The notes under the pieces: generated by a model
Databases searched by the model: none
Seen by the model: the letters and a program-made list of their open reading frames with translations, nothing else
What the model was told of the DNA's origin: nothing
In this document: positions 10,741 through 36,914 of the stretch, in pieces
Layout of the letters: each line of letters starts with the position of its first letter
Position numbering within the stretch: position 1 is the first letter of the stretch
Source: a virus
Taxonomy: Duplodnaviria; Heunggongvirae; Uroviricota; Caudoviricetes
Length of the DNA: 64,000 bases
Virus record (IMG/VR): IMGVR_UViG_2778261087_000003
Reading direction: 5' to 3' (one strand)
Position numbers and translations under genes: made by a program

Positions 10741-10984
10741 GGGAGTCCTCCGTTTTCACTTCGCTGTCACTGCTGCTTCTGCGCTTTGGTGACTGCACAG
10801 CCGGTGTGACGGCGGGTTTAGTATCTTCTGGTACCGGCGTCAGATGCTTCAGCGCCACCAGTACCTTCACGTAGTCATGCTCCTCCGGCAGGGAAACCGT
10901 CTTCCCCGGCCAGAGCAGGATTTCGGTTCCGTCCGACAGCGTGACGCCGCTGGCCGGGCCGGAATAGCGGTATGCTTTCATCAC
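10730..10984 (-). CDS. Hypothetical small protein upstream of sheath
   Basis: 84 aa ORF in conserved position. Confidence 0.45.
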   Translation of the reverse strand: MMKAYRYSGPASGVTLSDGTEILLWPGKTVSLPEEHDYVKVLVALKHLTPVPEDTKPAVTPAVQSPKRRSSSDSEVKTEDSHGS

Positions 10985-11445
10985 TCGCTTTCCTCATAGT
11001 TCACTTCGGTTAACAGCGGGCCGGACGGTAAATCGCTGTCTTCGATAAAGACGCTTTCAGTCGCGAAGTCGAGGGCGTACTGCCACAGCCCCCTGACTTC
11101 ACCGATAAACACCTCGCGGGTCAGCCAGATACGGCGGCGGCACCCGGGCGGGGTGTGGCCACCGAGAATGCGGCGGACAGCATCCAGGACATTAATCGCC
11201 CCTTTTTTACCGTTGAGCTGGCGGAAGACCACCGTGACGCAGAGCTGGATGGTCTGAGGCTGGATCACCGCACCGGTATCATCCGGCCTGTCAAAGCGCG
11301 AACCAGCATAGCTCAGCAGCAACGCGCCGACAGAATGATTGAGGCGATATTCGGACGGCTTTTCCGGGAAGTACTCCACCTGCAGTTGAGGCAGCTTCTC
11401 GCGCAACCGGGTCAGCACCGCATCAAGGACGGGCAGAACGTTCAT
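10981..11445 (-). CDS. Mu gp37-like head-tail/tail completion protein
   Basis: 154 aa, synteny between gp36-like and sheath. Confidence 0.55.
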   Translation of the reverse strand: MNVLPVLDAVLTRLREKLPQLQVEYFPEKPSEYRLNHSVGALLLSYAGSRFDRPDDTGAVIQPQTIQLCVTVVFRQLNGKKGAINVLDAVRRILGGHTPPGCRRRIWLTREVFIGEVRGLWQYALDFATESVFIEDSDLPSGPLLTEVNYEESE

Positions 11446-19747: not shown

Positions 19748-20073
19748 TATTGACCTCCGGTATTGCGGTACTGCTGTACCACTTCCAGTTTGTTATAAAG
19801 CGCGTCCAGTTTGGCCTCGATGACTGTCTGGCCACGGATATAATCCTCGCGACGGACATAATTCAGCGGTAAATCCGCTTTAAATCGCATAAATTCTTTT
19901 TCCAGCTCGCCCCAGTTGGATGCGGACTGTTGCAGGGCCTGTTCAAGAGAGGCGAATCGTGCCGCCTGGCGTTCTTCTGTTTTACTGAACAACCATTTGG
20001 CGAGCCCTCCCACAAACCCCATGAAGGTGAGCAAAAAACTCACCACCGTCCAGAATTCAACCTGCAGTGTCAT
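19747..20073 (-). CDS. Small membrane protein (late operon)
   Basis: 108 aa with one N-terminal hydrophobic helix. Confidence 0.45.
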   Translation of the reverse strand: MTLQVEFWTVVSFLLTFMGFVGGLAKWLFSKTEERQAARFASLEQALQQSASNWGELEKEFMRFKADLPLNYVRREDYIRGQTVIEAKLDALYNKLEVVQQYRNTGGQ

Positions 20074-20723
20074 TTCTGTAATCCTTCCCGTTCATCCAGT
20101 AGCGCGTTTATCTGGTTCCGCCAGCGACGACATTGCCCTGCGTTGTCGATGATGTTGGCGAGAACGTCACGCTGGGAGACGCCTGAGTCGCGTAGCCAGG
20201 CGTCAGCGGTTTCAGGTTGCCCGGTCGCTGCGCCAGTGCCGGTGCCAGTGGCGGCAGTTGCGTCTGAATGACCGGTGTCGACGGATGCGTTGTCATATCC
20301 GAGTGCGGCGTTGTACTGGCGCACGAAACCGCGAGTAAACACGCACTCAATGGGATGGCTCTTACCTTTTTCATCAATCCAGCGCTGTGTGACATCGTTA
20401 ATTTGCCCCTGTAGTTGTTTATTCCGGCTCTCCAGTTGAGCAATCTGCTCAAGGTAACTGGCTTCAGCCTGCTGCCCGGCGGCCACCTGCTCCTGATACC
20501 GTTTTGCCCAGGCCCGCAACGCAGCATTCTCAAGCGTTGCCTGCTCCGTTTTGTATTTGTCGAATGCTGACTGCAACTCACTGATCGCCTTATCGCCGTC
20601 GCGCGTGGCGTTTTCATGCCCGCTTTTGTAGCCCAGGTAATAAAGTCCAATCAGAAAAGCATTTATGAGCACAGCCAGCAGCAGACTGCGCCACGGCAGA
20701 TTTTTTAGCAGGTTAGTCCACAC
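20070..20723 (-). CDS. i-spanin (Rz-like)
   Basis: 217 aa, N-terminal TM helix (WRSLLLAVLINAFLIGLYYLGY) then coiled coil; follows endolysin. Confidence 0.6.
   Translation of the reverse strand: MWTNLLKNLPWRSLLLAVLINAFLIGLYYLGYKSGHENATRDGDKAISELQSAFDKYKTEQATLENAALRAWAKRYQEQVAAGQQAEASYLEQIAQLESRNKQLQGQINDVTQRWIDEKGKSHPIECVFTRGFVRQYNAALGYDNASVDTGHSDATAATGTGTGAATGQPETADAWLRDSGVSQRDVLANIIDNAGQCRRWRNQINALLDEREGLQK
20108..20374 (-). CDS. o-spanin (Rz1-like lipoprotein) embedded in +1 frame of i-spanin gene
   Basis: MKKVRAIPLSACLLAVSCAS... lipobox followed by Pro-rich sequence, entirely inside 20070-20723. Confidence 0.55.
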   Translation of the reverse strand: MKKVRAIPLSACLLAVSCASTTPHSDMTTHPSTPVIQTQLPPLAPALAQRPGNLKPLTPGYATQASPSVTFSPTSSTTQGNVVAGGTR

Positions 20724-21447
20724 AGCTGCCGCCCCCCCATGTCAGATAACGGGGGGCCAGTTCGTGCAGGATGCGCTGCGGATAATGGCGGTTCTCCCGC
20801 CAGCTGGCAGTGCTGCGTCCGGCATTCACCGTGGCGACATGACCAAACCAGCGGGTGCTGTCCAGCCCTTTTTGTGATGCAAGCCGCCTGTCCCGCTGTA
20901 CCCAGCCCAGACCACCGTTATAGCCCGACAGTGTCATGGCCATACGCTCGCAGTCACTGGCGGCGCTGACGCGCTGCCACAGCCAGCGGTCATAGCTGAC
21001 CAGCGCCCGGATGGCCCATGCCGGATTAAATGGCTCACGGCTGTTAAGCCCCGGCATCAACTGACTTATCCAGTCGGCGGTGGCGGGCATGAACTGCGCT
21101 AGTCCCTGAGCGCCAACCGGCGAGATCGCATCAGGTCGCCAGCCGCTTTCCTGATGCAGTTGCGCAGCGAAATCAGCCACCGGCGCAGACAGTCCCCATT
21201 CAAGCCGGGCATTACGGATCACATCATCGCGATACTGCAGCGCTGCCTGCGGAGGCTGCGCTGCGCGGGCCTGACTGAAGAAGCCGCCACACCAGAGCAA
21301 CATTGCGACAAAGAATACCCGTGCCATATGAACCAGAAAGGTCCCGGCGCGGACTGACAGGCGTTCGGTTCTGATGAAGACCCGAAAGGCTTCGAAAGCC
21401 AGTTTCAGGGACATGCATACAATCCAGGTGATCTGCGGCCAGTTCAT
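20713..21447 (-). CDS. Endolysin, SLT-family lytic transglycosylase with N-terminal hydrophobic anchor
   Basis: ...EWGLSAPVADFAAQLHQESGWRPDAISPVGAQGLAQFMPATA... SLT catalytic motif. Confidence 0.8.
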   Translation of the reverse strand: MNWPQITWIVCMSLKLAFEAFRVFIRTERLSVRAGTFLVHMARVFFVAMLLWCGGFFSQARAAQPPQAALQYRDDVIRNARLEWGLSAPVADFAAQLHQESGWRPDAISPVGAQGLAQFMPATADWISQLMPGLNSREPFNPAWAIRALVSYDRWLWQRVSAASDCERMAMTLSGYNGGLGWVQRDRRLASQKGLDSTRWFGHVATVNAGRSTASWRENRHYPQRILHELAPRYLTWGGGSCVD

Positions 21448-21449
21448 GA

Positions 21450-21800
21450 TTAAAGCCCCATCGCAACAGCCAGACAGACCGCTGCAACAATCAGTGCACG
21501 GCGGATTAACGCAGCAGAAAACACCAGGTGAAGGCCGGTCTGTACCGGGAAACGCCCATCAGCCATCAGTCTGTCGTCATGTTTCAGGTACTGACCGGGA
21601 CGGGCTTTGGGGAAGAGCGAACGGTCAAGCCAGTAACCCAGCACTGCTGCCAGCGTGATGAGTGCCAGCTTGTAGATCACAACAGGCAACTGCTGTGGCG
21701 AGACCAGAGCGATGGTGCCCAGCAACAGCACTGAGGTCAGCAGCCAGCCGCTGAGGCGAGGTTTTTTAACAGGGGGAATGAATTTTTTCAGGTTTTTCAT
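21450..21800 (-). CDS. Putative holin (start set at internal ATG with strong RBS)
   Basis: AAGGAGA RBS before ATG at 21800; three predicted hydrophobic helices; first gene of late arm. Confidence 0.5.
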   Translation of the reverse strand: MKNLKKFIPPVKKPRLSGWLLTSVLLLGTIALVSPQQLPVVIYKLALITLAAVLGYWLDRSLFPKARPGQYLKHDDRLMADGRFPVQTGLHLVFSAALIRRALIVAAVCLAVAMGL

Positions 21801-21930
21801 GTGTGTCTCCTTGTCTGGTGGAGACAGCATCACAAATACAGGGCGCGAAGGATTTTAAAGCGCGTTAAGAGAGCCGGGGATACGGGATGTGCAGGATAAA
21901 CGATGAATTATTCACAGAGGAGAATACGAT

Positions 21931-22674
21931 ATGACGCAGACACTGAATCCGGTCATCACTGTCACTGTGTCCGGTCCTGTGGGCAGCGGTAAAAGTTACG
22001 TACTGGCGCGGATAGAAGAGATGGTGAAACAGGAACTCGGAAACAGCGTCATTGTCGATGCTGCTGACGTGGAGAATGAGCGCCGTATGAGTGGCGATGA
22101 TCTGACGACCTGGCAGAAGCCACGGGGTGGCACAGTGATCAGGCTGGAGGAATACACGGGACAGGGCCTGTTGTCATACGGCGAGGAGCGTATCTGTCGG
22201 ACGAATGAGCTGCTGGATGTTATATGCCCCACGGGCCGGCAACCCTGGATACTGCCCGATGCACTGCATGCCACCATTGCGGCACTGATGACAGTTTACG
22301 ATCAGGAACTGCTCATGAAGGAGTTACGTAAACTCACCGGTCAGCCAACAGAATGTTTTTCGGCCCCGAAGTACGGGAAGCAGGAACACCTCCCGGTGAA
22401 CACAATCCCCGTTAACCAGCCTCCCCGGTTCTTCGACGAATACATTCTGACACCGGAAAATAAAGCTGAGCACGAAGAGATCAAAGCGGCGTTGTTCCGG
22501 GAAATCAGGAAGATTGCTGAAATGCAACTGGGGGGCGGGCTGGACAGAGTGATAGCGAGAGGAGAATGGGAGTCGCTGTTTGAAAGAGTTTCCCCGGAAT
22601 TACTGCCCCTCGCACTGGCTATCGGGATTATGCAGACAGCAGATAAACCTCACTTACGTTCATCAAACACGTAG
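21931..22674 (+). CDS. P-loop NTPase of unknown function (cargo)
   Basis: 247 aa, Walker A GPVGSGKS near N-terminus and candidate Walker B VIVDAADV; C-terminal 150 aa unassigned. Confidence 0.55.
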   Translation: MTQTLNPVITVTVSGPVGSGKSYVLARIEEMVKQELGNSVIVDAADVENERRMSGDDLTTWQKPRGGTVIRLEEYTGQGLLSYGEERICRTNELLDVICPTGRQPWILPDALHATIAALMTVYDQELLMKELRKLTGQPTECFSAPKYGKQEHLPVNTIPVNQPPRFFDEYILTPENKAEHEEIKAALFREIRKIAEMQLGGGLDRVIARGEWESLFERVSPELLPLALAIGIMQTADKPHLRSSNT

Positions 22675-22727
22675 CGCAGAATATTTTGCCGGTGAGTACA
22701 TAAAAATCATCATTTAAGGAGTGCATC

Positions 22728-22943
22728 ATGAATCCCCGATTAACGTTAACAGAACATCAGCGCCGTGCTGAAGCAGTGAACAATGTTCTGGAAGATATTA
22801 TCCGGTTATACCGCGGAGAACTGAGTGTCTGTCGTGCCGCTTTTCATTTTCAGGGAATACAAAAGCAGTTTGATACTTCTGTTTTTGCAGAAGGTATTAC
22901 TTATGCCCTGGACCGGATAAGGTCAGAAAATCGCCCCGGATAA
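22728..22943 (+). CDS. Hypothetical small protein
   Basis: 71 aa ORF between NTPase and Dam genes. Confidence 0.35.
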   Translation: MNPRLTLTEHQRRAEAVNNVLEDIIRLYRGELSVCRAAFHFQGIQKQFDTSVFAEGITYALDRIRSENRPG

Positions 22944-22997
22944 TCCCTAAACCACATTAACAGAAATCCCGCCATCCCTGCCGCATCATGAAAGAAC

Positions 22998-23029
22998 GAC
23001 CAGCCCGGCACCCGAAAGCCGGGCTGGTC
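22998..23029 (+). other. Perfect 12-bp stem-loop (GACCAGCCCGGC-8 nt-GCCGGGCTGGTC)
   Basis: Seen directly; intergenic between 71-aa ORF and Dam; no U-tract after it. Confidence 0.4.
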
Positions 23030-23133
23030 ATCGCCCCACAGGAATGCGCTGTGAGCCGACCAAGGTTCAGTCAGTCTCGCGAGACCTGACCAGACTGCCA
23101 TATTTTTTAATAATTGTAAAAGGCTTACAGATT

Positions 23134-23898
23134 ATGAAAATGCAGACATTACCCATCGTGCCGTGGATTGGTGGCAAACGTCGCCTTGCAAAACACATTC
23201 TGCCGCTGTTTCCGGCGCATGAATGTTATGTGGAGCCGTTTTGTGGGGCAGCAGCGCTCTATTTTCTTAAGACACCTGGTAAGCTCGAAGTCATTAACGA
23301 TATCAATGGTGAACTGGTGAATCTGTACCGGGTGGTAAAGCATCACCTGGAAGAATTTGTCCGCCAGTTCAAATGGGCGCTGGTCAGCCGTCAGATCTAC
23401 AAATGGCTGCAGATCACCCCGGAAGAAACACTGACGGATATCCAGCGTGCAGCACGGTTCTACTACCTTCAGAAGCAGGCGTTTGGCGGCAAGGTGGCAG
23501 AGCACAGCTTCGGTACCTCCACCACATCCCCGCCACGCTTCAACTTGCTGCGTATTGAAGAAGAACTGTCAGCGGCACACCTGCGACTTTCCAGAACAGT
23601 CATAGAACACATGGACTGGCAACAGTGCATTGAGCGTTATGACCGCCCGCACACGCTGTTCTACTGCGACCCGCCGTATCTGGGTACGGAAGGCTATGGT
23701 GTGGATTTTCCTGAAGGGAACTACTCGCGGCTGGCAGAGCTGGCCCGGTGCATCAGAGGAAAAATGATAATTTCGGTGAACGACATCCCGCAGATGCGCG
23801 AGGTGTTCACTGGACTGAACATACAGACAGTGAATATCAACTACAGTCTGGCGGGCAAATCAACGCCGCGCCGTGAGCTGGTGATTTGCAATTTTTAA
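23134..23898 (+). CDS. dam: DNA adenine methyltransferase, Dam family
   Basis: ...PWIGGKRRLAKHILPLFP..., EPFCGAAA (SAM motif), YCDPPYLG (DPPY catalytic motif); start set at MKMQTLPIVPW. Confidence 0.85.
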   Translation: MKMQTLPIVPWIGGKRRLAKHILPLFPAHECYVEPFCGAAALYFLKTPGKLEVINDINGELVNLYRVVKHHLEEFVRQFKWALVSRQIYKWLQITPEETLTDIQRAARFYYLQKQAFGGKVAEHSFGTSTTSPPRFNLLRIEEELSAAHLRLSRTVIEHMDWQQCIERYDRPHTLFYCDPPYLGTEGYGVDFPEGNYSRLAELARCIRGKMIISVNDIPQMREVFTGLNIQTVNINYSLAGKSTPRRELVICNF

Positions 23899-23911
23899 AA
23901 GAGGTAGTTAA

Positions 23912-23936
23912 AGGTGGTGCATCTGCAGCACCACCT
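23912..23936. terminator. Bidirectional rho-independent terminator
   Basis: AGGTGGTGC-ATCTGCA-GCACCACCT hairpin between convergent Dam and lipoprotein genes. Confidence 0.5.
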
Positions 23937-23942
23937 AAACAT

Positions 23943-24470
23943 TTAATCCAGCCTTGGACAAGTCCAATAATCATTATCTGGATCAGGTGAATAAACCTTC
24001 AAACAACCCGCTCGCGGGGGCTTATCATCATCTGTCATCGGAACATTTTCTTTATCCAGTTTCACAGTCAAGTCTCCACCGGGAACATCCGTTTTATCAA
24101 AAAAAACAGCCTGACATGCTGATTTAGGTATTTTCACTTCATGGGCATTATTGGATATGAACAAATAACAATTATTGCCAGAAGCTATGTAGTCACTTGG
24201 AATGTTATTTTCGTCTTTAATATGAAACTGCACAGTTGTCACCGGGCGTTCGCTATCCTTGGATACTTCAATTTTTTCAAAACTGCCCGCGTACTTATCT
24301 AGGCCGGGGAGTTGTTGGCGAATAAATTGTAATTCACGATTTACAACAGGATTATCTGTTTCAACGCTAAAAACATCGTGCTCCTTAGTTGTGGTGGACA
24401 TATCAGCTGGGGCAGTATTATCTCCACAGCCAGATAAAACAAATATCAACGGTATAAATAATTTACGCAT
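23943..24470 (-). CDS. Lipoprotein (cargo/moron), visibly AT-rich
   Basis: MRKLFIPLIFVLSGC lipobox signal; RBS AAGGA before this ATG; downstream of repressor on same strand. Confidence 0.7.
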   Translation of the reverse strand: MRKLFIPLIFVLSGCGDNTAPADMSTTTKEHDVFSVETDNPVVNRELQFIRQQLPGLDKYAGSFEKIEVSKDSERPVTTVQFHIKDENNIPSDYIASGNNCYLFISNNAHEVKIPKSACQAVFFDKTDVPGGDLTVKLDKENVPMTDDDKPPRAGCLKVYSPDPDNDYWTCPRLD

Positions 24471-24511
24471 CGTCATGTCCTTATACATTTAGTGTTCTTA
24501 ATAGGAACAGA

Positions 24512-24922
24512 TTAACCCGTATTTTTTAATCTCTCGAACTCAGCGGACAGCTCCTTAAGCTGTTTTTCCATATTAATCATTCGCTGTTTTTCTTCAGCGC
24601 CTCGCAGTAACTCTTTCCGCACTTCTGGATCCAGTTGGTTGAGCAACTCTAATAACTTCAGGTCAGATTGGCTGAAATGCTGCTCTTGATTAGTCAACTG
24701 TACTTTCTCTACTCCCACAGTTTCCCCTTTACCAGTAAGTAGCCAATCTATCGATATGTTCAAATGAGCACTCAATGCAACAAGAGCTTCTGCATTAGGC
24801 TCTCGCTCTCCACGTAGATAATTTTGAAGTGAGCGATATGGAATTTTCGATAAATCAGATAATGCCTTGATTGTCAGACCTTTAGCAACCATCGCTTCGC
24901 GCAATCTCTCTTTTATACTCAT
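24512..24922 (-). CDS. Phage repressor (c-like), HTH XRE-type with coiled-coil C-terminus; start uncertain
   Basis: MSIKERLREAMVAKGLTIKALSDLSKIPYRSLQNYLRGEREPNAEALVALSAHLNISIDWLLTGKG; divergent from early operon. Confidence 0.7.
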   Translation of the reverse strand: MSIKERLREAMVAKGLTIKALSDLSKIPYRSLQNYLRGEREPNAEALVALSAHLNISIDWLLTGKGETVGVEKVQLTNQEQHFSQSDLKLLELLNQLDPEVRKELLRGAEEKQRMINMEKQLKELSAEFERLKNTG

Positions 24923-24938
24923 TTGAACACATCTCAAT

Positions 24939-24966
24939 TTGACACACTCATTCGGGTGTGTACAAT
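24939..24966 (+). promoter_or_regulatory. Early promoter (TTGACA-16 bp-TACAAT) with operator-like palindrome ACACAC-N8-GTGTGT in the spacer
   Basis: Seen directly, 40 bp upstream of the ner-like start, between divergent repressor and early genes. Confidence 0.45.
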
Positions 24967-25010
24967 AGACCCAATAGAGTACATCATAACCCAACAGGAA
25001 CACGGTGCAT

Positions 25011-25235
25011 ATGAACAAACAACAAGTTCGAGCACGACTGGTTGAACGAGGCAGTAGCCTGCGCCAGTTTGCGCTTAACGCGGGCTATGAGCCACGAACT
25101 GTTACCCAGGCTGTTAGCCGCTGGGCAGGCAAAAGTGAACTTCCACGCGGTCGTTTGACTTATCGGATTTTGCGAGACCTTTCTGTTGCAATAGGTAAGG
25201 AAGTTACCCCCGGTATCCTCAAGGAGGCGTCATGA
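25011..25235 (+). CDS. Ner-like DNA-binding protein
   Basis: 74 aa, first early gene, ...RARLVERGSSLRQFALNAGYEPRTVTQAVSR... resembles Ner/HTH_35 pattern. Confidence 0.5.
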   Translation: MNKQQVRARLVERGSSLRQFALNAGYEPRTVTQAVSRWAGKSELPRGRLTYRILRDLSVAIGKEVTPGILKEAS

Positions 25236-25540
25236 GTAAACCAAATACATCAAGCTCAGGTACTCGTATTTTGCGTGTTCTTAAGGCCTTACGTGGTCAC
25301 ACTCTGAATGGTGTTTCTAATGGTGAATTGGCATTAGCTCTTGGTGAGTCCCCGGCGAATATCAATCGGGCACTAAATACCCTTATCGAAGAGGGACTAG
25401 CCCTAAAACTGGAGAACGGACGTTTTGCGCCAGGCATCCAGTTACTGCAGATCGCCATGGCTCACAGTAACGAGATGGCGCGAGCACAGGATCGTATTAA
25501 CGAAATCAATCAGCGAGTTATATCAGGTAGCTACCTGTAA
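25232..25540 (+). CDS. Winged-helix transcriptional regulator
   Basis: 102 aa, TRILRVLKALRGHTLNGVSNGELALALGESPANINRALNTLIEEGLA. Confidence 0.45.
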   Translation: MSKPNTSSSGTRILRVLKALRGHTLNGVSNGELALALGESPANINRALNTLIEEGLALKLENGRFAPGIQLLQIAMAHSNEMARAQDRINEINQRVISGSYL

Positions 25541-25550
25541 GGAGTGATTA

Positions 25551-26468
25551 ATGGGACGCACCAAATCACCGGTTAACACTGAACTGAACGCCGAGGTACC
25601 GCTGTCGGATGATCTCAACGTCAGCCTGAATGCCATGACACAGCATCGTATGGAGATCATGCAGCAGTTCGGCGACGGCCTGCCCTATGAACGTGAACGC
25701 ATCGTTCACGAGGCTCGATTTTATATGGACCAGAGTGCGGAGGCTATGCTGGAGGCAGGTAAGCGTTTGGTTATCCTGAAAGAAAATGAACCTCATGGAG
25801 AATACGTACAAATCGTCAAAGAACAGTTGAACCTTGAACCACGCATAGCCCAAAAAATGGCCCAAGCTGCTCTGAAGTTTTTATCTCCAGAACTGACATC
25901 AAAAGCGAAAACGTTTTCGCATTTGGGAAGATCAAAACTGTACGAATTGATGTTAGAGGATGACGAAGATCTTGCTGAACTGGCCGACGGCGGCACAGTC
26001 GCCGGCCTGACGCTTGACGACGTTGATCGCATGTCAGTACGTGAATTGCGTCAGGCCCTGCGCGAAGCGCGCGAAACCAACGCAGCACAACAGCGCGTAC
26101 TCGCCGACAAAAATGAAAAAATCGACTCACTTTCCACCAGACTGGAGAAGAAATCCCGTATTCAGCCACCCGAGCCTGATGAAGAGGTGAAGAAGCTGCG
26201 GGCGGAAGTGACGGCATTAGCGGTTGAGGCGGAATCTGCCATCGCCGTCCGGCTGTCCGGTGCCTTTGAAACCCTGTGTGAATACTGCAGTAAAAACATG
26301 ATTGATACCCCCAGAAATTTCATGGCTGGTCTGGTCTGCCAGATTGAACGCAGTGTTCATGCATTGCGTGAGACGTTTGACCTTGATGCCGCACCATCGG
26401 GTAACGATGTCCCCGCCTGGCTGACCGAACCGGAGCCTGAAATCAACCGACCGGAGGGCATGCGTTAA
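25551..26468 (+). CDS. Hypothetical early protein
   Basis: 305 aa, acidic, coiled-coil rich; upstream of transposase. Confidence 0.45.
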   Translation: MGRTKSPVNTELNAEVPLSDDLNVSLNAMTQHRMEIMQQFGDGLPYERERIVHEARFYMDQSAEAMLEAGKRLVILKENEPHGEYVQIVKEQLNLEPRIAQKMAQAALKFLSPELTSKAKTFSHLGRSKLYELMLEDDEDLAELADGGTVAGLTLDDVDRMSVRELRQALREARETNAAQQRVLADKNEKIDSLSTRLEKKSRIQPPEPDEEVKKLRAEVTALAVEAESAIAVRLSGAFETLCEYCSKNMIDTPRNFMAGLVCQIERSVHALRETFDLDAAPSGNDVPAWLTEPEPEINRPEGMR

Positions 26469-26785
26469 TGAACACGAATAACACACAAAATATCCTGATG
26501 GACAGCCCGGAGGCACTGGGGCACGCACTGTGTAATCTGCTGCCGGAGATGGTGCAGGGTTTCCGCGTGGTGACCCCTTCCGGTGAAATCTGCGTACCCG
26601 CACAGGAGACGCACCCGTTTGTACTGACGATGGAGGTGATGCTGATGCAGCAGATAAGACGTCTGCAGAATCAGTCAGCATTACGCCCGGTAGTTGCACC
26701 GCAACCGGTAAATACCGTGGTGAAAACCTGCGATGGCGAAACACTGTGCGACCTCGCCAGAAAAATTGCCGCCAGAATCGGATAA
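26468..26785 (+). CDS. Hypothetical early protein
   Basis: 105 aa ORF start-coupled to upstream gene. Confidence 0.4.
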   Translation: MNTNNTQNILMDSPEALGHALCNLLPEMVQGFRVVTPSGEICVPAQETHPFVLTMEVMLMQQIRRLQNQSALRPVVAPQPVNTVVKTCDGETLCDLARKIAARIG

Positions 26786-26800
26786 CAGGGAAGACAAGCT

Positions 26801-28570
26801 ATGACCCCGGCACTGACTGAAAAACTGGTTGAAACAGCCCGCGCGGCACGTGACGCGGGGCATGGTAAACGCGGTGCAATATACGACGCTGCCTGTGCTG
26901 AACTTGGCATGTCCCGCGCCACTCTGCTGCGCAGGCTGAAGGAGGTCTCTGTGACTGATAAACGCAAAAAACGCGCCGATGCCGGGCGCAGCGCCCTGAC
27001 CCGCGACGAAGCCGCGCTGATATCTGCCACACTGCGTGAGGCCACCCGCAAGAACGGTAAGCGTCTCTATTCCATCGCAGATGCAGTGGAAACCCTGCGG
27101 GCTAACGGCTTTATCACCGCAGGCAGAACAGATGAAACCACCGGTGAGTTTTTCCCGTTGTCTGAAGATGCCATCAGCCGTGCTCTGCGTAACTATGGCC
27201 TGCACCCGGAACAACTGGATGCCCCTGCACCACATACCGAAGTGGCCAGTCTGCATCCCAATCATGTCTGGCAGATTGACGCCTCACTCTGCACGCTTTA
27301 CTACCTGAGCAATGGACATAAAGGGCTGCAGGTGATGGACAGCGCGAAGTTCTACAAGAACAAGCCCGCTAACCTTGCCCGTATCGCCAGTGACCGCGTG
27401 TGGAGTTACGAGATTACCGACCATGCCAGCGGCTGGATTTACGTTGAGTATGTGACGGGCGCGGAATCAGGTGAGAACCTGTGTTCTGTGCTTATCAACG
27501 CCATGCAGGAGCGTGGCGGCGCAGACGTGCTGCACGGCGTGCCGAAAATACTCTATCTCGACCCCGGCTCGGCAAACACCGCGGGTATGACGAAAAACAT
27601 GTGCCGCTCACTGGGCATCGACCTGATAGCGCACAAGCCGCATAACGCCCGCGCCACCGGACAGGTGGAAAAGGCGCGTGACATTATCGAACGCAAGCTG
27701 GAGCCGGGTCTGAAGTTCCGGCCGGTTCACAGCCTGGAAGAACTCAACGCGCTGGCCGCGAAATGGCGCAGCCACTTTAACGCCACGGCTGTTCACAGCC
27801 GCCACGGTAAAACCCGCACGGATATCTGGCTGAAGATTACTGCTGAGCAGCTGAAAAAAGCGCCTTCCGTTGAGGTATGTCGTGAACTGGCTGTGGCGGC
27901 ACCAGAACTCCGCAAAGTCACGCCAAAACTTCGTGTCTCGTTCCGGGGCACTGAATTTGACGTATCAACGGTACCGGGCGTACTGGTTGGTGAAAAACTG
28001 ATGATTACCCGTAACCCATGGCGCAGCGATGTGGCACAGGTGGTTCTGACCGGTGAGGACGGCCACGAGACGTTCTTCCTGGTCGAAGAGGTCAGAAAGA
28101 ACGAGTTTGGCTTTGCTGAAGGCGCGGCGGTATTTGGCGAAAGTTACAAAGCCCTGCCGGAAACCCCGGCACAGACGGCGGCAAAAGAAACTGAAGCGCT
28201 GGTTACCGGTACAGACAACGCCGCAGATGCAGCCGCCGCACGCAAGGCGAAGGCGCTGCCGTTCGGCGGGCGGCTTGACCCGTATAAACATATCGACGAC
28301 ACCACACTTCCGGCCTATATGCCGAAGCGTGGTCAGGCCTCTGACGTACGCGGGCCGCGCACTGAACAACGTCCCATGACTCATGTGGAGGCCGCGAAAG
28401 CCCTGCGCGATAAGTTCAGCGCCGACGGCCTTACCTGGACGCCGGAACATTACCGCCAGTTAACGGCACAGTACCCGGACGGCGTACCGGAAGCCGCACT
28501 GGATGAAGTCATGGCCACGCTGACCACACCGGCCAGCAGCAGTGTTATCAGCATTGTTAACGGCAACTGA
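26801..28570 (+). CDS. DDE transposase (Mu A-like)
   Basis: 589 aa; N-terminal HTH; catalytic residues in WQIDAS, YLDPGS and GQVEKA. Confidence 0.85.
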   Translation: MTPALTEKLVETARAARDAGHGKRGAIYDAACAELGMSRATLLRRLKEVSVTDKRKKRADAGRSALTRDEAALISATLREATRKNGKRLYSIADAVETLRANGFITAGRTDETTGEFFPLSEDAISRALRNYGLHPEQLDAPAPHTEVASLHPNHVWQIDASLCTLYYLSNGHKGLQVMDSAKFYKNKPANLARIASDRVWSYEITDHASGWIYVEYVTGAESGENLCSVLINAMQERGGADVLHGVPKILYLDPGSANTAGMTKNMCRSLGIDLIAHKPHNARATGQVEKARDIIERKLEPGLKFRPVHSLEELNALAAKWRSHFNATAVHSRHGKTRTDIWLKITAEQLKKAPSVEVCRELAVAAPELRKVTPKLRVSFRGTEFDVSTVPGVLVGEKLMITRNPWRSDVAQVVLTGEDGHETFFLVEEVRKNEFGFAEGAAVFGESYKALPETPAQTAAKETEALVTGTDNAADAAAARKAKALPFGGRLDPYKHIDDTTLPAYMPKRGQASDVRGPRTEQRPMTHVEAAKALRDKFSADGLTWTPEHYRQLTAQYPDGVPEAALDEVMATLTTPASSSVISIVNGN

Positions 28571-32786: not shown

Positions 32787-33228
32787 ACAACGTCTTATCC
32801 AGCTCATTCATATTGCCCGTAATGAACTGGGTATGGATGAAGACACCTACCGCCAGATGTTACAGGGGCTGACCGGTAAAGCCTCAACCAAAGGAATGGA
32901 TACCACACAACTAAACTGCGTGCTGGAATCCATGAAAAGGAAAGGCTTTCGCGTTAAGCCTGCCGGAAAAGCCAGCTCCGGTTTACCGCTGGATAACCAT
33001 CCGCAGTCCAGGAAAATCCGTGCGCTATGGCTTGAAATGGCTGCTGCCGGCATTGTTCGTGACCGTTCAGAAAATGCATTAGCGCGGTGGATCAAGCGGG
33101 AAACGGGCATCAGCGCCCTGCGCTGGCTCAATACTGAACAGGCAAGTAGTGTTATTGAGAAACTGAAGAAGTGGCAGCGCAGAGCTGCGGGAGTAAAACA
33201 TGAGCGACCTGAATCAGTTTCGAAGTAA
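32776..33228 (+). CDS. GemA-like regulatory protein (Mu gp16-like)
   Basis: MMTKQRLIQLIHIARNELGMDEDTYRQMLQGLTGKASTKGMDTTQL... Confidence 0.6.
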   Translation: MMTKQRLIQLIHIARNELGMDEDTYRQMLQGLTGKASTKGMDTTQLNCVLESMKRKGFRVKPAGKASSGLPLDNHPQSRKIRALWLEMAAAGIVRDRSENALARWIKRETGISALRWLNTEQASSVIEKLKKWQRRAAGVKHERPESVSK

Positions 33229-33589
33229 AGGGCCGGAACTCCTGGTGGAACTGGCACAGCATACCTCTGAGACCGTTCGCGAGATTATTGATATTGAGCC
33301 CGCAATTGCCGACCAGATTGGTCAGGCCGTCGCGAACCGCATGATGCAGGTCTGGGGCGGGCAAAACGTTTATTTCCCGATGGGCATGGTATGGAAGGTC
33401 AGTCAGCGCGACCGGGAAATCTTCAGGGAGTTTAACGGACGTAACCACCATGAACTGGCCCGCAAATTTGGTGTTTCGCTTCAGTGGGTCTACAGCGTGG
33501 TTAAGCGGGTAAGAAAAGAAGAACTGGATCGGATGCAGGGCAAGCTATTTGCTGATGAACCCGATGTAGATACGGAGAAAAAAGAGTAA
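33200..33589 (+). CDS. mor: Mor/C-family late transcription activator
   Basis: ...GGQNVYFPMG...REIFREFNGRNHHELARKFGVSLQWVYSVVKRVRKEE...; last gene of early arm. Confidence 0.7.
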   Translation: MSDLNQFRSKGPELLVELAQHTSETVREIIDIEPAIADQIGQAVANRMMQVWGGQNVYFPMGMVWKVSQRDREIFREFNGRNHHELARKFGVSLQWVYSVVKRVRKEELDRMQGKLFADEPDVDTEKKE

Positions 33590-33677: not shown

Positions 33678-33752
<75 letters not shown>

Positions 33753-33893: not shown

Positions 33894-36800
33894 ATGTTCG
33901 ATCAAAAAGGCGGTGCGCAAAAAAGCCAAAACCAACGCGATGCGCGTGGTCGTTTTATTGGAAAGTCAGGGAGTAAGGCCGCAGCGGAAGATGCCCGTGC
34001 TGAACGTGCTGAAAAGGCCAGGCGCAAAGAGGATGATGAGCGTCTAAATGCTGAATCAGGTTTATTAAAAAAACTGTCAAAAGTAGCTGAAGGCATAGGT
34101 AACCCTTCAGAGACTCGTGCCGTCGATGCGTTAGGTTATGCCGTTGCTGGTCCATTGTGGGCAGCAGGGAAGGAGCTTGGCGGGATATCAAAAGAAGTTG
34201 GTGGATCGCTTAATGGTGCCAGAAAGTCTATTGCCGATGTGATTCGTGGCAATGACGATAACAGCCGTAGAAAAGGTTTTTTTAGGCGTAAATCGCAAAA
34301 TAGTGCCGATGTCGTTCAGGTTAACACCCAAAAACGGACGGTTCAGGAACTTCAGGAGCAGACCAGCGAAATTAAAGAGGGCAATGACAAGATTCTCAGC
34401 GCCCTTGATCAGATAGCCAAAAACACCGGGAAAAAGAAGGGCGGCTTGCTGTCCAAACTATTTAGCCTGTTAGGGAAGGGGGCCGGTGGCGTCGCGTCGT
34501 TGTTAATGGGGCGTGGCATGCTGAAAAAAGCTGGAGCACTCGCTTTTGGCGCTCTGGGGGCAAAGAAACTTGTAGGAATGCTACGCGGTGGTGGCAAGAA
34601 GACTCTCGCCCATGAAGGCGGAGATTTGGCTGCCCGGGCAGCAGGTAAACTTGGATTAAAGGCAGTTGGTAAAGGGGCGTTACGCGCAATTCCCCTGGTC
34701 GGCACAGTGGCTGGAGGTATTTATGATGCGGTAACCGGTTGGAATGATACAGAAGCGCAACGTCGAGCGTTTGGGCTTAAATCAGGACAAGATCCATCAT
34801 TCCAGCAAAAAGCCGCTTATACGTTAGCTAATGTTCTTGATATGGGGGGACTGGTATCTGGTATTAGCAGCGCCATTGGTGAGGTTCTCAAATCACTTGG
34901 ATTTGAGGATATCGGCAATATGTTGCAATCATTTTCGACGGAAAGTATTGCCCAGGCCATTGATAGTGGGATTACCAACTTAGAAACATATATTTCTAAC
35001 CTTGGCGACACCATTTCTACCAAGTTCGATGATTACACAGCAAAGATTGGTGATGCTGTTTCAGCATGGTTTAGCGATACATCTAATAAGCTGCTTGAAA
35101 AGCTGGATGCCATCAAAGACTTCTTTACTGTCGATAACCTGAAACAGGTTTTCAGTGATGCAATTGATAGTGCAATTGATTTCATTAAGAACCCAGGGAA
35201 ACACATTAAAGAGGCGGCTGGTAATATTTGGGATGGGGTTAAAAATTTACCTGGTAAAGCATTAGATGCAGCGGTTGATGCCGTTAAAAATACCCCTGCG
35301 GCAATGATTGTATCAAAAATACCCAATCCGATCGGCGAGGCTAATGCGAAAGAAATCACTCCAGAGTTAAAAGCTCCGGTTAATAGCCACCAGGAGACAT
35401 CTGATTCTAAAACTGAATCCGATGCCAAACAGACTAATATTGTTACCCGCGTGATAAATGCGGCACTGGACACGGCGAAAGATAGCAATAAAACAGTTAA
35501 AGAAACTGCTAATCAGATTATCAATGCAAATGCCGTAGAAACGGGCAATAGCGCGTTGCAGAAAATTGATAAAGCTATTGGTCAAAATAGCTCGTCATCA
35601 TCGTCGCTTAATACCACTGGCACCAGGAATGACATTCAGAAAGCTGCGGATACCTACAACAATGGCCGCTTGGATGTAAAAGTCGGAAGTCTTGGCGCTG
35701 AAGGTAAGGCAAATCTCGATAAGTTGGCTCCGTATTTTGCTGAACTAGAGAATAAATATGGCCTTCCTGAAGGTACTCTTTACGCGATCGCTGCAACTGA
35801 ATCTGGTGGTGATCCTAACGCAAAATCTACGCTTACAAGATCACCAAATGGAAAGCTAAGTGGTGGCGCTCTCGGAATGTTCCAGTTTACGAGCGTTGCT
35901 CGTGAGGAAACTGGATTATCCCGGGAAGATTCTTTTAATCCGGAAAAATCGGCAGAAGCTGCGGCTCTTCTCATGAGCAAGTATCTGAAGCAAGCCAATG
36001 GAGACTTAAACGAGGCCATCACTGCATATAACGCTGGGTTTGGCACTATCAATAAGTGGAAAAAAGGCACAGGTGACTTATCGAAAGAAAACCGTGAGTA
36101 CGCGATCAAGGTCAATACTCATCGTGCTCGCTATTTAGGTGGTGAAATCTATACACCTGGAGCAGGAGCACAGGGTGGGGCGCAATATGGAGTGAGGGGA
36201 CCACTGCCTGATAACGCTGTTATCGATCAGTCTACTGGCTTGGCGTTTACCCTTGGTGATAGCCCGTTTGAGAAAGGCGGTCTGGTAGACAAAATCGGCA
36301 ATGCTGTTGGCGTTAACGATCTGGTCAACAAATTCATGAATGGCCGGGGTATGCGTCGGGAAGTCGTTCAGGGAACGCTCGAAGAACGTGCACGAGGGAA
36401 GGGGACCGCAACAGCAGCTGGCAATGTGTATGTTGATACCCCGATGCCAGTTGAAGAGGCGCGTCCGGTGGCCAACAACTCAAGTTACTTTGACCAGCTC
36501 GGCGCACAAATGGGGATTGATGGACTATTCGATAAACTCCTCAACTCGCCGGGGATGCGGAAAAATAATGCGCCTGAACCAGCCTCCACGTCCCAGGTGA
36601 CGACTGCCGCCAACGATTTGCAGCAACCAACCGGTCGTATGCAGATAGACGGACAGGTTATTAGTGACCTTGGCGGCTCCGGTGCCAAGCCGACAATGCA
36701 GTTGGCTGATAATACCGTTTCACTTGATGGTGAAACGAAGCGGCTGTTTGCGCAGATGACCTCATTGCTTGCCAGGATTGAAGAGCACACCAAAGACTCG

Positions 36801-36914
36801 GCGAAAGGCCAGGGAACTGTCGTAAAGGTCAGCACGCCTCAGCCGGGCGTTATGCGCACGGTACCACTGTCAATTGATGATCCGTTGATGAATGACTACG
36901 CGAGAGTTGATTGA
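33894..36914 (+). CDS. sit: Sit-like injection protein with lytic transglycosylase domain; likely 5'-truncated (frame open back to 33750)
   Basis: 1006 aa; ...LYAIAATESGGDPNAKS...GALGMFQFTSVAREETGL...AYNAGFG... LT motifs; position upstream of baseplate/R/S/U as in P1. Confidence 0.65.
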   Translation: MFDQKGGAQKSQNQRDARGRFIGKSGSKAAAEDARAERAEKARRKEDDERLNAESGLLKKLSKVAEGIGNPSETRAVDALGYAVAGPLWAAGKELGGISKEVGGSLNGARKSIADVIRGNDDNSRRKGFFRRKSQNSADVVQVNTQKRTVQELQEQTSEIKEGNDKILSALDQIAKNTGKKKGGLLSKLFSLLGKGAGGVASLLMGRGMLKKAGALAFGALGAKKLVGMLRGGGKKTLAHEGGDLAARAAGKLGLKAVGKGALRAIPLVGTVAGGIYDAVTGWNDTEAQRRAFGLKSGQDPSFQQKAAYTLANVLDMGGLVSGISSAIGEVLKSLGFEDIGNMLQSFSTESIAQAIDSGITNLETYISNLGDTISTKFDDYTAKIGDAVSAWFSDTSNKLLEKLDAIKDFFTVDNLKQVFSDAIDSAIDFIKNPGKHIKEAAGNIWDGVKNLPGKALDAAVDAVKNTPAAMIVSKIPNPIGEANAKEITPELKAPVNSHQETSDSKTESDAKQTNIVTRVINAALDTAKDSNKTVKETANQIINANAVETGNSALQKIDKAIGQNSSSSSSLNTTGTRNDIQKAADTYNNGRLDVKVGSLGAEGKANLDKLAPYFAELENKYGLPEGTLYAIAATESGGDPNAKSTLTRSPNGKLSGGALGMFQFTSVAREETGLSREDSFNPEKSAEAAALLMSKYLKQANGDLNEAITAYNAGFGTINKWKKGTGDLSKENREYAIKVNTHRARYLGGEIYTPGAGAQGGAQYGVRGPLPDNAVIDQSTGLAFTLGDSPFEKGGLVDKIGNAVGVNDLVNKFMNGRGMRREVVQGTLEERARGKGTATAAGNVYVDTPMPVEEARPVANNSSYFDQLGAQMGIDGLFDKLLNSPGMRKNNAPEPASTSQVTTAANDLQQPTGRMQIDGQVISDLGGSGAKPTMQLADNTVSLDGETKRLFAQMTSLLARIEEHTKDSAKGQGTVVKVSTPQPGVMRTVPLSIDDPLMNDYARVD

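What the first reader, a model, noticed from the sequence alone, without database searches (positions are those of the whole stretch)
23943..24470. AT-rich lipoprotein gene co-oriented with the repressor
It has a clean lipobox signal (MRKLFIPLIFVLSGC) and its base composition is visibly more AT-rich than its neighbours. It sits directly downstream of the repressor on the same strand, so it is probably expressed in the lysogen. This is the classical position of superinfection-exclusion or host-interaction morons.
Basis: partly seen in the sequence, partly recalled or inferred. Interest (0 to 1): 0.5.

Follow-up and report, generated by a model that had tools for sequence, protein, structure and literature searches.

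The report
Prophage lipoprotein gene behind the repressor
A real, conserved gene for a membrane-tethered periplasmic protein sits in the repressor operon of a Mu-like (BcepMu-type) prophage; it belongs to an undescribed protein-domain family that recurs in that slot in many prophages and is most likely an accessory that blocks infection by other phages, but its function is untested.

Summary
The ORF at 23943..24470 (minus strand, 175 aa) has a conserved lipobox (LSG|C15). It is the most AT-rich stretch of the 64-kb window (GC 0.396, GC3 0.32). It starts 41 nt downstream of a 136-aa CI-type repressor on the same strand, and a strong hairpin follows its stop codon. One correction: the repressor is equally AT-rich, so the two genes form one low-GC exchangeable cassette rather than a lone moron.

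The element is a BcepMu-like transposable prophage. The protein has no Pfam, NCBIfam, PADLOC or PDB match and no convincing fold relative. A profile search shows its core is a wider, always extracytoplasmic domain family. Members are lipoproteins or TM-anchored proteins, and the core is the C-terminal part of phrog_10002.

In 12 of 13 genomic contexts the gene lies downstream of, and co-oriented with, a repressor-like HTH gene. These include several repressor types and a P2-like prophage. None lies in a structural operon.

One sub-lineage fuses the domain to Ltp superinfection-exclusion repeats. The mature-protein coding part is a deeply diverged swapped allele within otherwise 80-93% identical DNA, yet it is under purifying selection.

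Best reading (about 0.45): a lysogen-expressed envelope protein that excludes superinfecting phages. Function is inferred, not shown.

The parts
23943..24470 (-). Lipoprotein gene (175 aa). It encodes a signal peptide, lipobox Cys15, a roughly 25-residue disordered linker, an alpha/beta core domain (about residues 30-138, motif PGLDKYA...GxNC...K.AC) and a C-terminal Cys-loop extension (residues 139-175).
   Evidence: ORF. RefSeq CDS WP_244463904.1. 35 homologues. Alignment. AF2 model with pLDDT about 90 over residues 30-175. phrog_10002, C-terminal part, E=4e-12. dN/dS 0.15 against the KP12 allele.
24426..24470 (-). Signal peptide and lipobox (MRKLFIPLIFVLSG|C). After Cys15 the +2 residue is Gly and the +3 residue is Asp.
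   Evidence: Read directly from the sequence. G14 and C15 are invariant in 17 homologues.
24478..24482 (-). Shine-Dalgarno AAGGA, 7 nt upstream of the ATG at 24470.
   Evidence: Read directly from the sequence.
24471..24511 (-). 41-nt gap between repressor and lipoprotein gene, with no promoter-like site, no terminator-like site and no significant structure. This implies one transcript.
   Evidence: fold z = -0.03.
24512..24922 (-). CI-type HTH repressor (136 aa), the first gene of the inferred operon. It is AT-rich like the lipoprotein gene.
   Evidence: Pfam HTH_3 and Phage_CI_repr. PHROG repressor families. GC 0.414.
23912..23936 (.). 9-bp GC-rich hairpin between the convergent lipoprotein and methylase genes. 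It is the probable terminator of the repressor-lipoprotein transcript and marks the left edge of the exchangeable cassette.
   Evidence: -18.1 kcal/mol, z -2.9 on the minus strand; -17.1 on the plus strand. Not found by the strict terminator scan because the U-tract is weak. Among the loci fetched it occurs only in the identical prophage.
24939..24966 (+). Divergent early promoter (TTGACA-16-TACAAT, 11 of 12 matches) reading into the ner/cro-like gene at 25011. An inverted repeat (GACACAC-N8-GTGTGT) overlaps its spacer and is a likely operator.
   Evidence: The repeat was read from the sequence.
25011..25235 (+). Ner/Cro-like small HTH gene (phrog_8503). It marks the right part of the immunity region.
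   Evidence: Relatives with another immunity type carry a different gene here.
23134..23898 (+). Convergent Dam-type N6-adenine DNA methylase. It is conserved backbone flanking the cassette.
   Evidence: Pfam MethyltransfD12 E=5.7e-29. PADLOC MTase_II E=1.5e-112.

Best explanation
The gene encodes a membrane-tethered periplasmic protein. It is most likely made in the lysogen from the same transcript as the prophage repressor. It then most likely acts in the cell envelope to stop other phages from establishing infection (superinfection exclusion).

Proposed sequence of events:
1. The repressor promoter drives repressor, then lipoprotein, with termination at the hairpin 23912..23936.
2. The pre-protein is exported, lipidated at Cys15 and cleaved by signal peptidase II.
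3. A disordered linker of about 25 residues holds a compact alpha/beta domain in the periplasm. Conserved Cys pairs probably stabilise that domain with disulfides.
4. The domain binds a component that an infecting phage needs after adsorption. Candidates are the ejected tape-measure or tail-tip proteins, or the periplasmic face of an envelope protein they use. Genome entry is thereby blocked.

Shown here: the gene, the lipobox, the composition, the operon-like layout, the conserved slot, the family architecture, and purifying selection combined with allele swapping. Inferred: expression in the lysogen, localisation, the disulfides, the exclusion function and its target.
For: (1) Layout. The gene is 41 nt downstream of the repressor on the same strand. 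No promoter, terminator or structure lies between them, and a strong hairpin follows the gene.

(2) Conserved slot. In 12 of 13 contexts the homologue follows a repressor-like HTH gene on the same strand, either directly or after one ORF. In the thirteenth (L015) the HTH gene is divergent.
- The BcepMu-like prophages are from E. coli, Klebsiella phage KP12, Morganella, Yersinia, E. fergusonii, Serratia/Klebsiella and metagenomes.
- They carry at least four unrelated or distant repressor types.
- A P2-like prophage shows the same arrangement.

(3) The domain is always extracytoplasmic. Among 148 family representatives, 65 have a lipobox, 56 have a signal peptide or TM segment, and at least 10 have an internal TM after a cytoplasmic or zinc-ribbon domain.

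(4) Domain fusion. P0046 and P0184 combine a TM anchor, this domain and two Ltp repeats (PF07553 E=5.5e-28; PHROG 'superinfection exclusion' E=1.7e-42). Ltp is a proven lysogeny-module lipoprotein that blocks DNA injection through the tape-measure protein (PMC3952083). Gram-negative Ltp proteins use the same anchors, either a lipobox or a zinc ribbon plus TM.

(5) Evolution typical of phage-phage conflict genes. In the Morganella and Yersinia prophages the neighbouring genes have dN of 0.02-0.23 (repressor, ner, transposase, methylase and holin: 0.02-0.11). The lipoprotein has dN of 0.41-0.46 with saturated synonymous sites. DNA identity drops from 80-93% to 38-62% over essentially the mature-protein coding part (about 24400..23920) and recovers in the methylase gene. 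Close alleles show dN/dS of 0.15, so the gene is functional.

(6) Accessory status. The gene is present in about 3% of E. coli prophages of this backbone. In others the slot is empty or holds other cargo, an NA37 gene plus a 401-aa gene.
Against: - There is no experimental or expression evidence.
- The Ltp fusion is rare: one of 45 long family members, in two 90%-identity clusters. A fusion shows association, not the same function.
- AT-rich genes in E. coli are often silenced by H-NS (general knowledge), so expression in the lysogen is not assured.
- No promoter for the repressor operon was recognised by the consensus scan.
- The position downstream of a repressor is also used by non-exclusion cargo.
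Confidence: 0.45

Rival explanations
1. Receptor masking from the outer membrane, in the manner of Llp or Cor. The lipoprotein is sorted to the inner leaflet of the outer membrane, binds the periplasmic face of a specific outer-membrane receptor and changes it so that phages (and perhaps colicins) can no longer adsorb. This is a sub-type of exclusion that acts at adsorption rather than entry.
For: The +2 residue after Cys15 is Gly, not Asp, and only 6 of 65 lipobox members of the family have Asp at +2, so default Lol sorting to the outer membrane is expected for most. Conserved Cys pairs recall the intramolecular disulfide of Llp and Cor, and Llp acts from the periplasmic side (PMC9586334). 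The deep allelic divergence of the mature domain could track host-specific receptors.
Against: Many family members are anchored in the inner membrane by a TM helix (P0090, P0051, P0057, P0046), which fits poorly with a target at the outer membrane. The mature protein is about 160 aa, against 61 for Llp, and shows no sequence similarity to it. The gene is linked to the repressor rather than to a receptor-binding protein gene as Llp is (PMC9586334). The phage has a contractile tail of the Mu/BcepMu type, and Mu uses LPS as its receptor (my own knowledge, not tested here), so a protein receptor is not evident.
Confidence: 0.15
2. Lysogenic conversion unrelated to phages. The lipoprotein benefits the host in its niche, for example through serum or complement resistance like lambda Bor or TraT, protection against peptidoglycan-targeting toxins (type VI effectors, lysozymes, colicins), or adhesion.
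Confidence: 0.2
3. Part of the phage's own lysogeny/lysis control. The periplasmic domain senses or reports an envelope state and works with a BcepMu gp18-like membrane protein, whose cytoplasmic domain resembles anti-repressors weakly, to influence the repressor switch or lysis timing.
For: In phrog_10002 proteins (P0090, P0051, P0117) the domain is fused, through a TM helix, to the cytoplasmic N-domain that it shares with BcepMu gp18. In other prophages the two parts are adjacent genes right after the repressor. That N-domain has weak Ant-like matches (E about 4e-4).
Against: The window's prophage has no gp18-like partner; the repressor is followed directly by the lipoprotein. Most E. coli prophages of this backbone lack the gene altogether, so it is dispensable for the phage cycle. 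The Ant-like similarity is marginal.
Confidence: 0.1
4. A chance or decaying ORF with no function.
For: It is annotated only as hypothetical, has no known domain and has an unusual composition.
Against: The lipobox and about 26 residues are invariant across homologues down to 40% identity. dN/dS is 0.15. The profile search found 203 family representatives. The fold prediction is confident, and a good Shine-Dalgarno sequence precedes the start codon.
Confidence: 0.03

Closest known systems
Ltp of Streptococcus thermophilus phage TP-J34 (Pfam PF07553, Lipoprotein_Ltp)
   Same: [quoted passage not shown] Both have the layout lipid anchor, flexible spacer, extracytoplasmic effector domain (PMC3952083). 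The window's domain is physically fused to Ltp repeats in P0046 and P0184, and both domain types use the same alternative anchors.
   Different: There is no sequence or fold similarity: the window protein has no PF07553 match. Ltp is an all-helical HTH-like repeat in a Gram-positive host, whereas this protein is an alpha/beta domain in the Gram-negative periplasm. The target of Ltp, the tape-measure protein, is known; here the target is unknown.
Llp (phage T5) and Cor (T1, phi80, N15) exclusion lipoproteins
   Same: They are phage-encoded Gram-negative lipoproteins that act from the periplasmic side, carry an intramolecular disulfide and exclude phages (PMC9586334).
   Different: Llp is 61 residues, is encoded next to the receptor-binding protein gene and targets FhuA. 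The window protein is about 160 residues when mature, is unrelated in sequence, is linked to the repressor, and has relatives anchored in the inner membrane.
phrog_10002 and BcepMu gp18-like membrane proteins (phrog_6521, phrog_5825)
   Same: The window protein's core is homologous to the C-terminal periplasmic part of phrog_10002 (E=4e-12, positions 215-321 of 328). These genes occupy the same slot after the repressor in transposable phages.
   Different: phrog_10002 proteins carry a cytoplasmic N-domain and a TM helix in place of a lipobox. BcepMu gp18 shares only that N-domain and has a different periplasmic end; an HMM of the window family does not match gp18, gp19 or gp20. All of these are of unknown function.
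Lambda rexAB and other repressor-operon accessory genes
   Same: They are accessory genes co-transcribed with the prophage repressor and therefore expressed in the lysogen, where they act against other phages (my own knowledge of lambda cI-rexA-rexB).
   Different: Rex proteins are unrelated to this protein and act by abortive infection from the inner membrane or cytoplasm, not as a periplasmic lipoprotein.

Membership tests
Bacterial lipoprotein (Lgt/LspA/Lnt substrate) | N-terminal signal peptide with a positively charged n-region, a hydrophobic core and the lipobox [LVI][ASTVI][GAS]C | tested here: met
   MRKLFIPLIFVLSG|C. G14 and C15 are invariant in 17 homologues.
Bacterial lipoprotein (Lgt/LspA/Lnt substrate) | Actual lipidation and globomycin-sensitive processing | not testable with these tools
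   Needs an experiment (globomycin treatment, palmitate labelling, C15A mutant).
Moron (independent transcription unit added to a phage genome) | Present in some but absent from closely related phages, with deviant base composition | tested here: met
   Absent from H4- and H6-type prophages. About 20-22 of 637 E. coli genomes with this backbone carry it. GC is 0.396 against 0.549 for the prophage.
Moron (independent transcription unit added to a phage genome) | Own promoter and own terminator flanking the gene | tested here: inconclusive
   A terminator-type hairpin is present downstream. No promoter-like site lies in the 41-nt gap or the 3' end of the repressor gene. The composition and the exchange unit are shared with the repressor.
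Ltp family (PF07553) | Ltp repeat domain detectable in the protein | tested here: not met
   No Pfam hit at E <= 0.01. Only the distant relatives P0046 and P0184 carry Ltp repeats, as an added C-terminal module.
Ltp family (PF07553) | Lipoprotein gene in the lysogeny module | tested here: met
   plus the contexts.
Llp/Cor exclusion lipoproteins | Sequence similarity to Llp or Cor; small mature size (about 60-80 aa) | tested here: not met
   The only PHROG hit is phrog_10002, and no exclusion family matched. The mature protein is about 160 aa.
Llp/Cor exclusion lipoproteins | Gene adjacent to the receptor-binding protein gene | tested here: not met
   The gene lies between the repressor and a methylase gene, more than 20 kb from the baseplate and tail genes.
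Llp/Cor exclusion lipoproteins | Blocks adsorption by binding a receptor | not testable with these tools
   Needs adsorption assays and pull-downs.
phrog_10002 (unknown function) | Significant match to the family profile | tested here: met
   E=4.1e-12, but only to profile positions 215-321 of 328, the periplasmic domain. The full-length architecture is seen in P0090 (E=8.9e-93).
o-spanin (Rz1-type outer-membrane lipoprotein of the lysis cassette) | Short proline-rich lipoprotein encoded in or next to the i-spanin gene in the lysis cassette | tested here: not met
   The lysis cassette (holin, SLT endolysin, Rz-like spanin 20070..20723) is separate and complete in outline. In BcepMu, Rz1 is embedded in Rz. 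This gene is 175 aa, not proline-rich, and lies outside the cassette.
Bor/TraT serum-resistance lipoproteins | Sequence match to the Bor or TraT families | tested here: not met
   No Pfam or NCBIfam family matched.

The most novel reading that the evidence does not exclude
The 'PGLDKY' alpha/beta domain may define a previously undescribed and widespread class of periplasmic superinfection-exclusion 'warheads'. On this reading, temperate phages of at least two lineages (BcepMu-like transposable phages and P2-like phages) place it in the repressor operon. They mount it on interchangeable anchors (lipobox, TM helix, zinc ribbon plus TM, or a gp18-like cytoplasmic domain) and sometimes in tandem with Ltp repeats. 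It would act on the periplasmic stage of phage genome delivery, and its alleles would be swapped as cassettes under conflict-driven diversification.
Probability: 0.35. Interest if true: 0.6.

Novelty: new member of a known kind. Interest (0 to 1): 0.4.

Why it matters
If the exclusion role is confirmed, this would add a new protein family and fold to the short list of envelope-level superinfection-exclusion proteins of Gram-negative bacteria. The family is absent from Pfam and is 'unknown function' in PHROGs.

It would also explain a recurrent gene slot behind the repressor of BcepMu-like prophages, a backbone found in about 12% of complete E. coli genomes. The gene itself could serve as a marker for predicting phage resistance conferred by prophages, which is relevant to phage therapy.

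As it stands, it is a well-supported but ordinary-looking candidate accessory gene of unknown function.

Tried and rejected
- Sequence searches of the protein against Pfam, NCBIfam, PADLOC and PDB sequences gave no hits.
- Is it an o-spanin or other lysis gene? Rejected. The lysis cassette is separate and the features do not fit.
- Do BcepMu's own slot genes gp18, gp19 or gp20 match? No homology to the lipoprotein domain by HMM. gp18 shares only the N-domain of the fused phrog_10002 form.
- Is the neighbouring slot cargo a known defence system? The NA37 plus 401-aa pair, BcepMu gp18/19 and others were scanned against PADLOC. Only two marginal hits appeared, at E about 1e-4.
- Fast evolution by positive selection? 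Close alleles give dN/dS of 0.15, which is purifying selection. The large divergence seen elsewhere is an old allele exchanged by recombination, with saturated dS, rather than demonstrable positive selection.
- Co-variation with the tail fibre was not attempted.
- Literature searches found no paper on this protein or slot.

Full report
**1. What is in the sequence**

The finding's coordinates delimit a real ORF on the minus strand, 23943..24470 (175 aa). An AAGGA Shine-Dalgarno sequence lies 7 nt before the ATG at 24470. RefSeq calls the same ORF (WP_244463904.1, 'hypothetical protein') in a near-identical prophage of E. coli O68:H12 strain 97.3.

The N-terminus, MRKLFIPLIFVLSG|C, is a textbook lipoprotein signal. 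The Gly-Cys of the lipobox is invariant in 17 homologues down to about 40% identity.

The gene is the most AT-rich stretch of the whole window. Its GC is 0.396 and its GC3 is 0.318, against a prophage mean of 0.549 and a GC3 of about 0.61 in neighbouring genes. Only 0.6% of equal-sized windows are as low, and the global minimum lies inside the gene.

The repressor just upstream is almost as AT-rich (GC 0.414, GC3 0.380). The unusual composition therefore marks a repressor-plus-lipoprotein block, not the lipoprotein alone.

**2. Surroundings**

The element is a BcepMu-like transposable (Mu-like) prophage. To the right of the gene, in order, are:
- a 136-aa CI/HTH_3 repressor on the same strand (24512..24922);
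- a divergent near-consensus early promoter (24939..24966);
- a ner/cro-like gene, an IclR-type HTH gene and a DUF3102 gene;
- a DDE transposase and an ExeA/AAA_22 (MuB-like) gene.

To the left are a convergent Dam-type methylase gene, two small conserved genes, and then the holin / SLT endolysin / Rz-like spanin cassette and the Mu-type head and contractile-tail genes. This gene order matches BcepMu itself.

The gap between repressor and lipoprotein gene is 41 nt. It has no promoter-like site, no terminator-like site and no RNA structure above background (z = -0.03). Six nt after the lipoprotein stop codon lies a 9-bp GC-rich hairpin (23912..23936; -18.1 kcal/mol, z = -2.9). The simplest reading is one transcript: repressor, then lipoprotein, then terminator. 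That is an inference from layout; no expression data exist here.

**3. Accessory status and the cassette**

The prophage backbone (21400..27000) matches 637 of 5,426 complete E. coli genomes. Only one genome covers more than 80% of that stretch, because the central part is replaced in the others.

The repressor-plus-lipoprotein cassette is found at 80% coverage or more in 20 genomes. Two further genomes carry a 72%-identical lipoprotein gene with another repressor.

In close relatives with other immunity types, the repressor faces the methylase gene directly and there is no lipoprotein gene. In another set, a related repressor is followed by a nucleoid-associated (NA37) gene plus a 401-aa gene instead. 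In Yersinia, E. fergusonii and E. coli A35, the lipoprotein gene and that gene pair occur together. The position behind the repressor is therefore a cargo slot.

**4. The protein and its family**

Nothing matched in Pfam, NCBIfam, PADLOC or PDB sequences. The only hit was phrog_10002, of unknown function, and only to its C-terminal third.

A word-indexed search found just 35 close homologues, all 'hypothetical' and all from Enterobacterales. A profile search of 1.84 billion cluster representatives reached 203 proteins at E <= 1e-3 and 80 at E <= 1e-10.

These share a core of about 100 residues with the motif PGLDKYA...IP..Y...G.xC...K.AC. Most are lipoproteins of 135-160 aa. Others carry a signal peptide or TM anchor, an N-terminal zinc ribbon plus TM, or a cytoplasmic domain of about 170 aa plus TM. 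The last type is the full phrog_10002 architecture (P0090, E=8.9e-93). Its cytoplasmic domain is the one found in BcepMu gp18, the gene directly after the BcepMu repressor.

The domain is thus always extracytoplasmic, and it is tethered to either membrane. Among the lipoprotein forms only 6 of 65 have Asp at +2, while at least 10 other forms have inner-membrane TM anchors.

The window protein adds a C-terminal Cys-loop extension (ENVPMT..PPRAGCL....W.CP), which also ends some longer relatives.

**5. Genomic context of relatives**

I examined 13 independent contexts. Eleven are transposable (BcepMu-type or Mu-type) prophages or contigs of that type:
- the window, Klebsiella phage KP12, Morganella, Yersinia, E. 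fergusonii, Serratia/Klebsiella, E. coli A35 and metagenomic contig L008;
- the distant members P0045 and P0055;
- P0090, which is preceded by an HTH_31 gene on short contigs too small to type the phage.

In all eleven the gene lies downstream of, and co-oriented with, the repressor-like HTH gene, either directly or after one ORF. The repressors belong to at least four unrelated or distant types.

The zinc-ribbon form P0057 sits directly after the repressor-like gene of a P2-like prophage. The Ltp-fused form P0046 lies next to a divergent HTH gene.

No homologue lies in a structural operon. That condition is in any case weak, because the proven exclusion lipoprotein Llp sits next to the receptor-binding protein gene (PMC9586334) and the mEpimmI Lpp genes lie within the structural gene cluster (PMC11893012).

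**6. Evolutionary pattern**

Against the Morganella and Yersinia prophages, amino-acid identities are:

| Gene | Identity to the window's protein |
|---|---|
| Repressor | 86-89% |
| Ner-like | 93-96% |
| Transposase | 88-92% |
| Methylase | 84-87% |
| Lipoprotein | 41-47% |

DNA identity falls from 80-93% to 38-62% over the part that encodes the mature protein (about 24400..23920). It recovers in the methylase gene.

The lipoprotein's synonymous sites are saturated (pS 0.77, against 0.44-0.74 in its neighbours) and its dN is 0.41-0.46 (against 0.02-0.23). This is an old allele moved in by recombination, not recent fast drift.

Between close alleles (window against KP12) dN/dS is 0.15, so the gene is under purifying selection. 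Deep, exchangeable alleles of an otherwise constrained envelope protein are what one expects of genes involved in phage-phage or phage-host surface conflict. That last point is inference.

**7. Functional clue from domain fusion**

Two 90%-identity clusters, P0046 and P0184 (76% identical to each other, on five contigs up to 73 kb), combine a TM anchor, this domain and two Ltp repeats. The Ltp match is strong: PF07553 E=5.5e-28, and PHROG 'superinfection exclusion' families E=1.7e-42 and 2.7e-30.

Ltp of phage TP-J34 is a lysogeny-module lipoprotein that is transcribed in the prophage. Its repeat domain blocks DNA injection by binding the tape-measure protein of the incoming phage (PMC3952083).

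Gram-negative Ltp-family proteins use the same alternative anchors, a lipobox or a zinc ribbon plus TM, as the family described here. This suggests the two domains are alternative effector modules for a similar job. The fusion is rare, occurring in one of 45 long members scanned, so this is a lead and not proof.

**8. Most likely mechanism and rivals**

The best reading (confidence about 0.45) is that the protein is made in the lysogen with the repressor, exported and lipid-anchored. It would then use its periplasmic domain to block a post-adsorption step of infection by other phages, in an Ltp-, SieA- or Imm-like way. Tethering to either membrane across the family favours a target that is reachable anywhere in the periplasm, such as ejected tail proteins.

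The rivals are:
- outer-membrane receptor jamming like Llp or Cor (0.15);
- a host-benefit conversion factor such as serum resistance or a toxin/lysozyme inhibitor (0.2);
- a role in the phage's own switch together with gp18-like proteins (0.1), which is unlikely here because this prophage has no gp18-like gene and most relatives lack the lipoprotein;
- a functionless ORF (0.03), which the conservation data contradict.

**9. Comparison with the known, and novelty**

By function the gene most resembles Ltp, Llp/Cor and other repressor-operon accessory genes. It fails the sequence-based membership tests for each of those families. It is a member of the uncharacterised phrog_10002 domain family.

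It is best filed as a new member of a known kind, namely prophage-encoded envelope accessory proteins that are candidates for superinfection exclusion. The domain itself is undescribed and has no fold relatives.

Interest is moderate at 0.4. The breadth of the family, the conserved slot, the allele swapping and the Ltp fusion nevertheless make it a good, directly testable candidate.

**10. Seen in passing**

Identity to the E. coli 97.3 chromosome stops at window position 33752, just past the Mor gene, which marks the prophage end. From 33753 onward the window matches P1-like phage-plasmids at 99.4% identity. The junction lies 261 nt inside the P1 sit-like SLT/tape-measure gene. In this window, therefore, the transposable phage sits inside a P1-like phage-plasmid and disrupts one of its tail genes.

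Noticed in passing
window 33752/33753 junction; 33753..~41000 and beyond: The BcepMu-like prophage ends at about 33752, just after the Mor gene (33200..33589). The flank is not E. coli chromosome. It is a P1-like phage-plasmid, 99.4% identical to roughly 95-100 kb plasmids such as pUTAK-22-3. The junction lies 261 nt inside the P1 sit-like SLT/tape-measure gene, whose truncated remainder is the ORF 33894..36914. This is a transposable phage inserted in, and disrupting, another phage.
   Followed up: partly
L007 6732..8947; L010 6549..8836; L014 2688..4924; L029 234..2449: In other prophages the same slot behind the repressor holds a conserved gene pair, a nucleoid-associated NA37-family protein plus a roughly 401-aa protein. 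The pair occurs with or without the lipoprotein gene. It has no PADLOC match and may be an uncharacterised prophage cargo or defence pair.
   Followed up: partly
window 24941..24963 (+): An inverted repeat, GACACAC-N8-GTGTGT, overlaps the spacer of the near-consensus early promoter (24939..24966). It is a likely repressor operator.
   Followed up: no
L024 (BcepMu) 9639..10421; P0090, P0051, P0117; L016 5396..5986: BcepMu gp18-like proteins are encoded directly after the repressor. They share a cytoplasmic N-domain (phrog_5825/6521) with weak anti-repressor (Ant) similarity (E about 4e-4), followed by a TM helix and variable periplasmic ends. In phrog_10002 that periplasmic end is the lipoprotein's domain.
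   Followed up: partly
window 23134..23898 (+): A Dam-type N6-adenine methylase gene with no adjacent restriction gene (PADLOC MTase_II E=1.5e-112). It is convergent with the lipoprotein gene and conserved in the prophage backbone.
   Followed up: no
window 22728..22943 (+): A small conserved ORF (71 aa, phrog_4490, unknown function) also has low GC (0.444, GC3 0.347), unlike its neighbours. In one relative (L002) an extra 134-aa gene is inserted next to it.
   Followed up: no
window 20713..21447 (-): The SLT-type endolysin has a long hydrophobic N-terminal segment that ends in an Ala-x-Ala-like site. This suggests a secreted or signal-anchored endolysin rather than a strictly holin-dependent one.
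   Followed up: no
L024 (BcepMu) 10663..11199: BcepMu gp19, which occupies the same cargo slot, has a marginal match to a 2-TM effector model of defence systems (PADLOC PDLC00712, E=6.7e-5).
   Followed up: no
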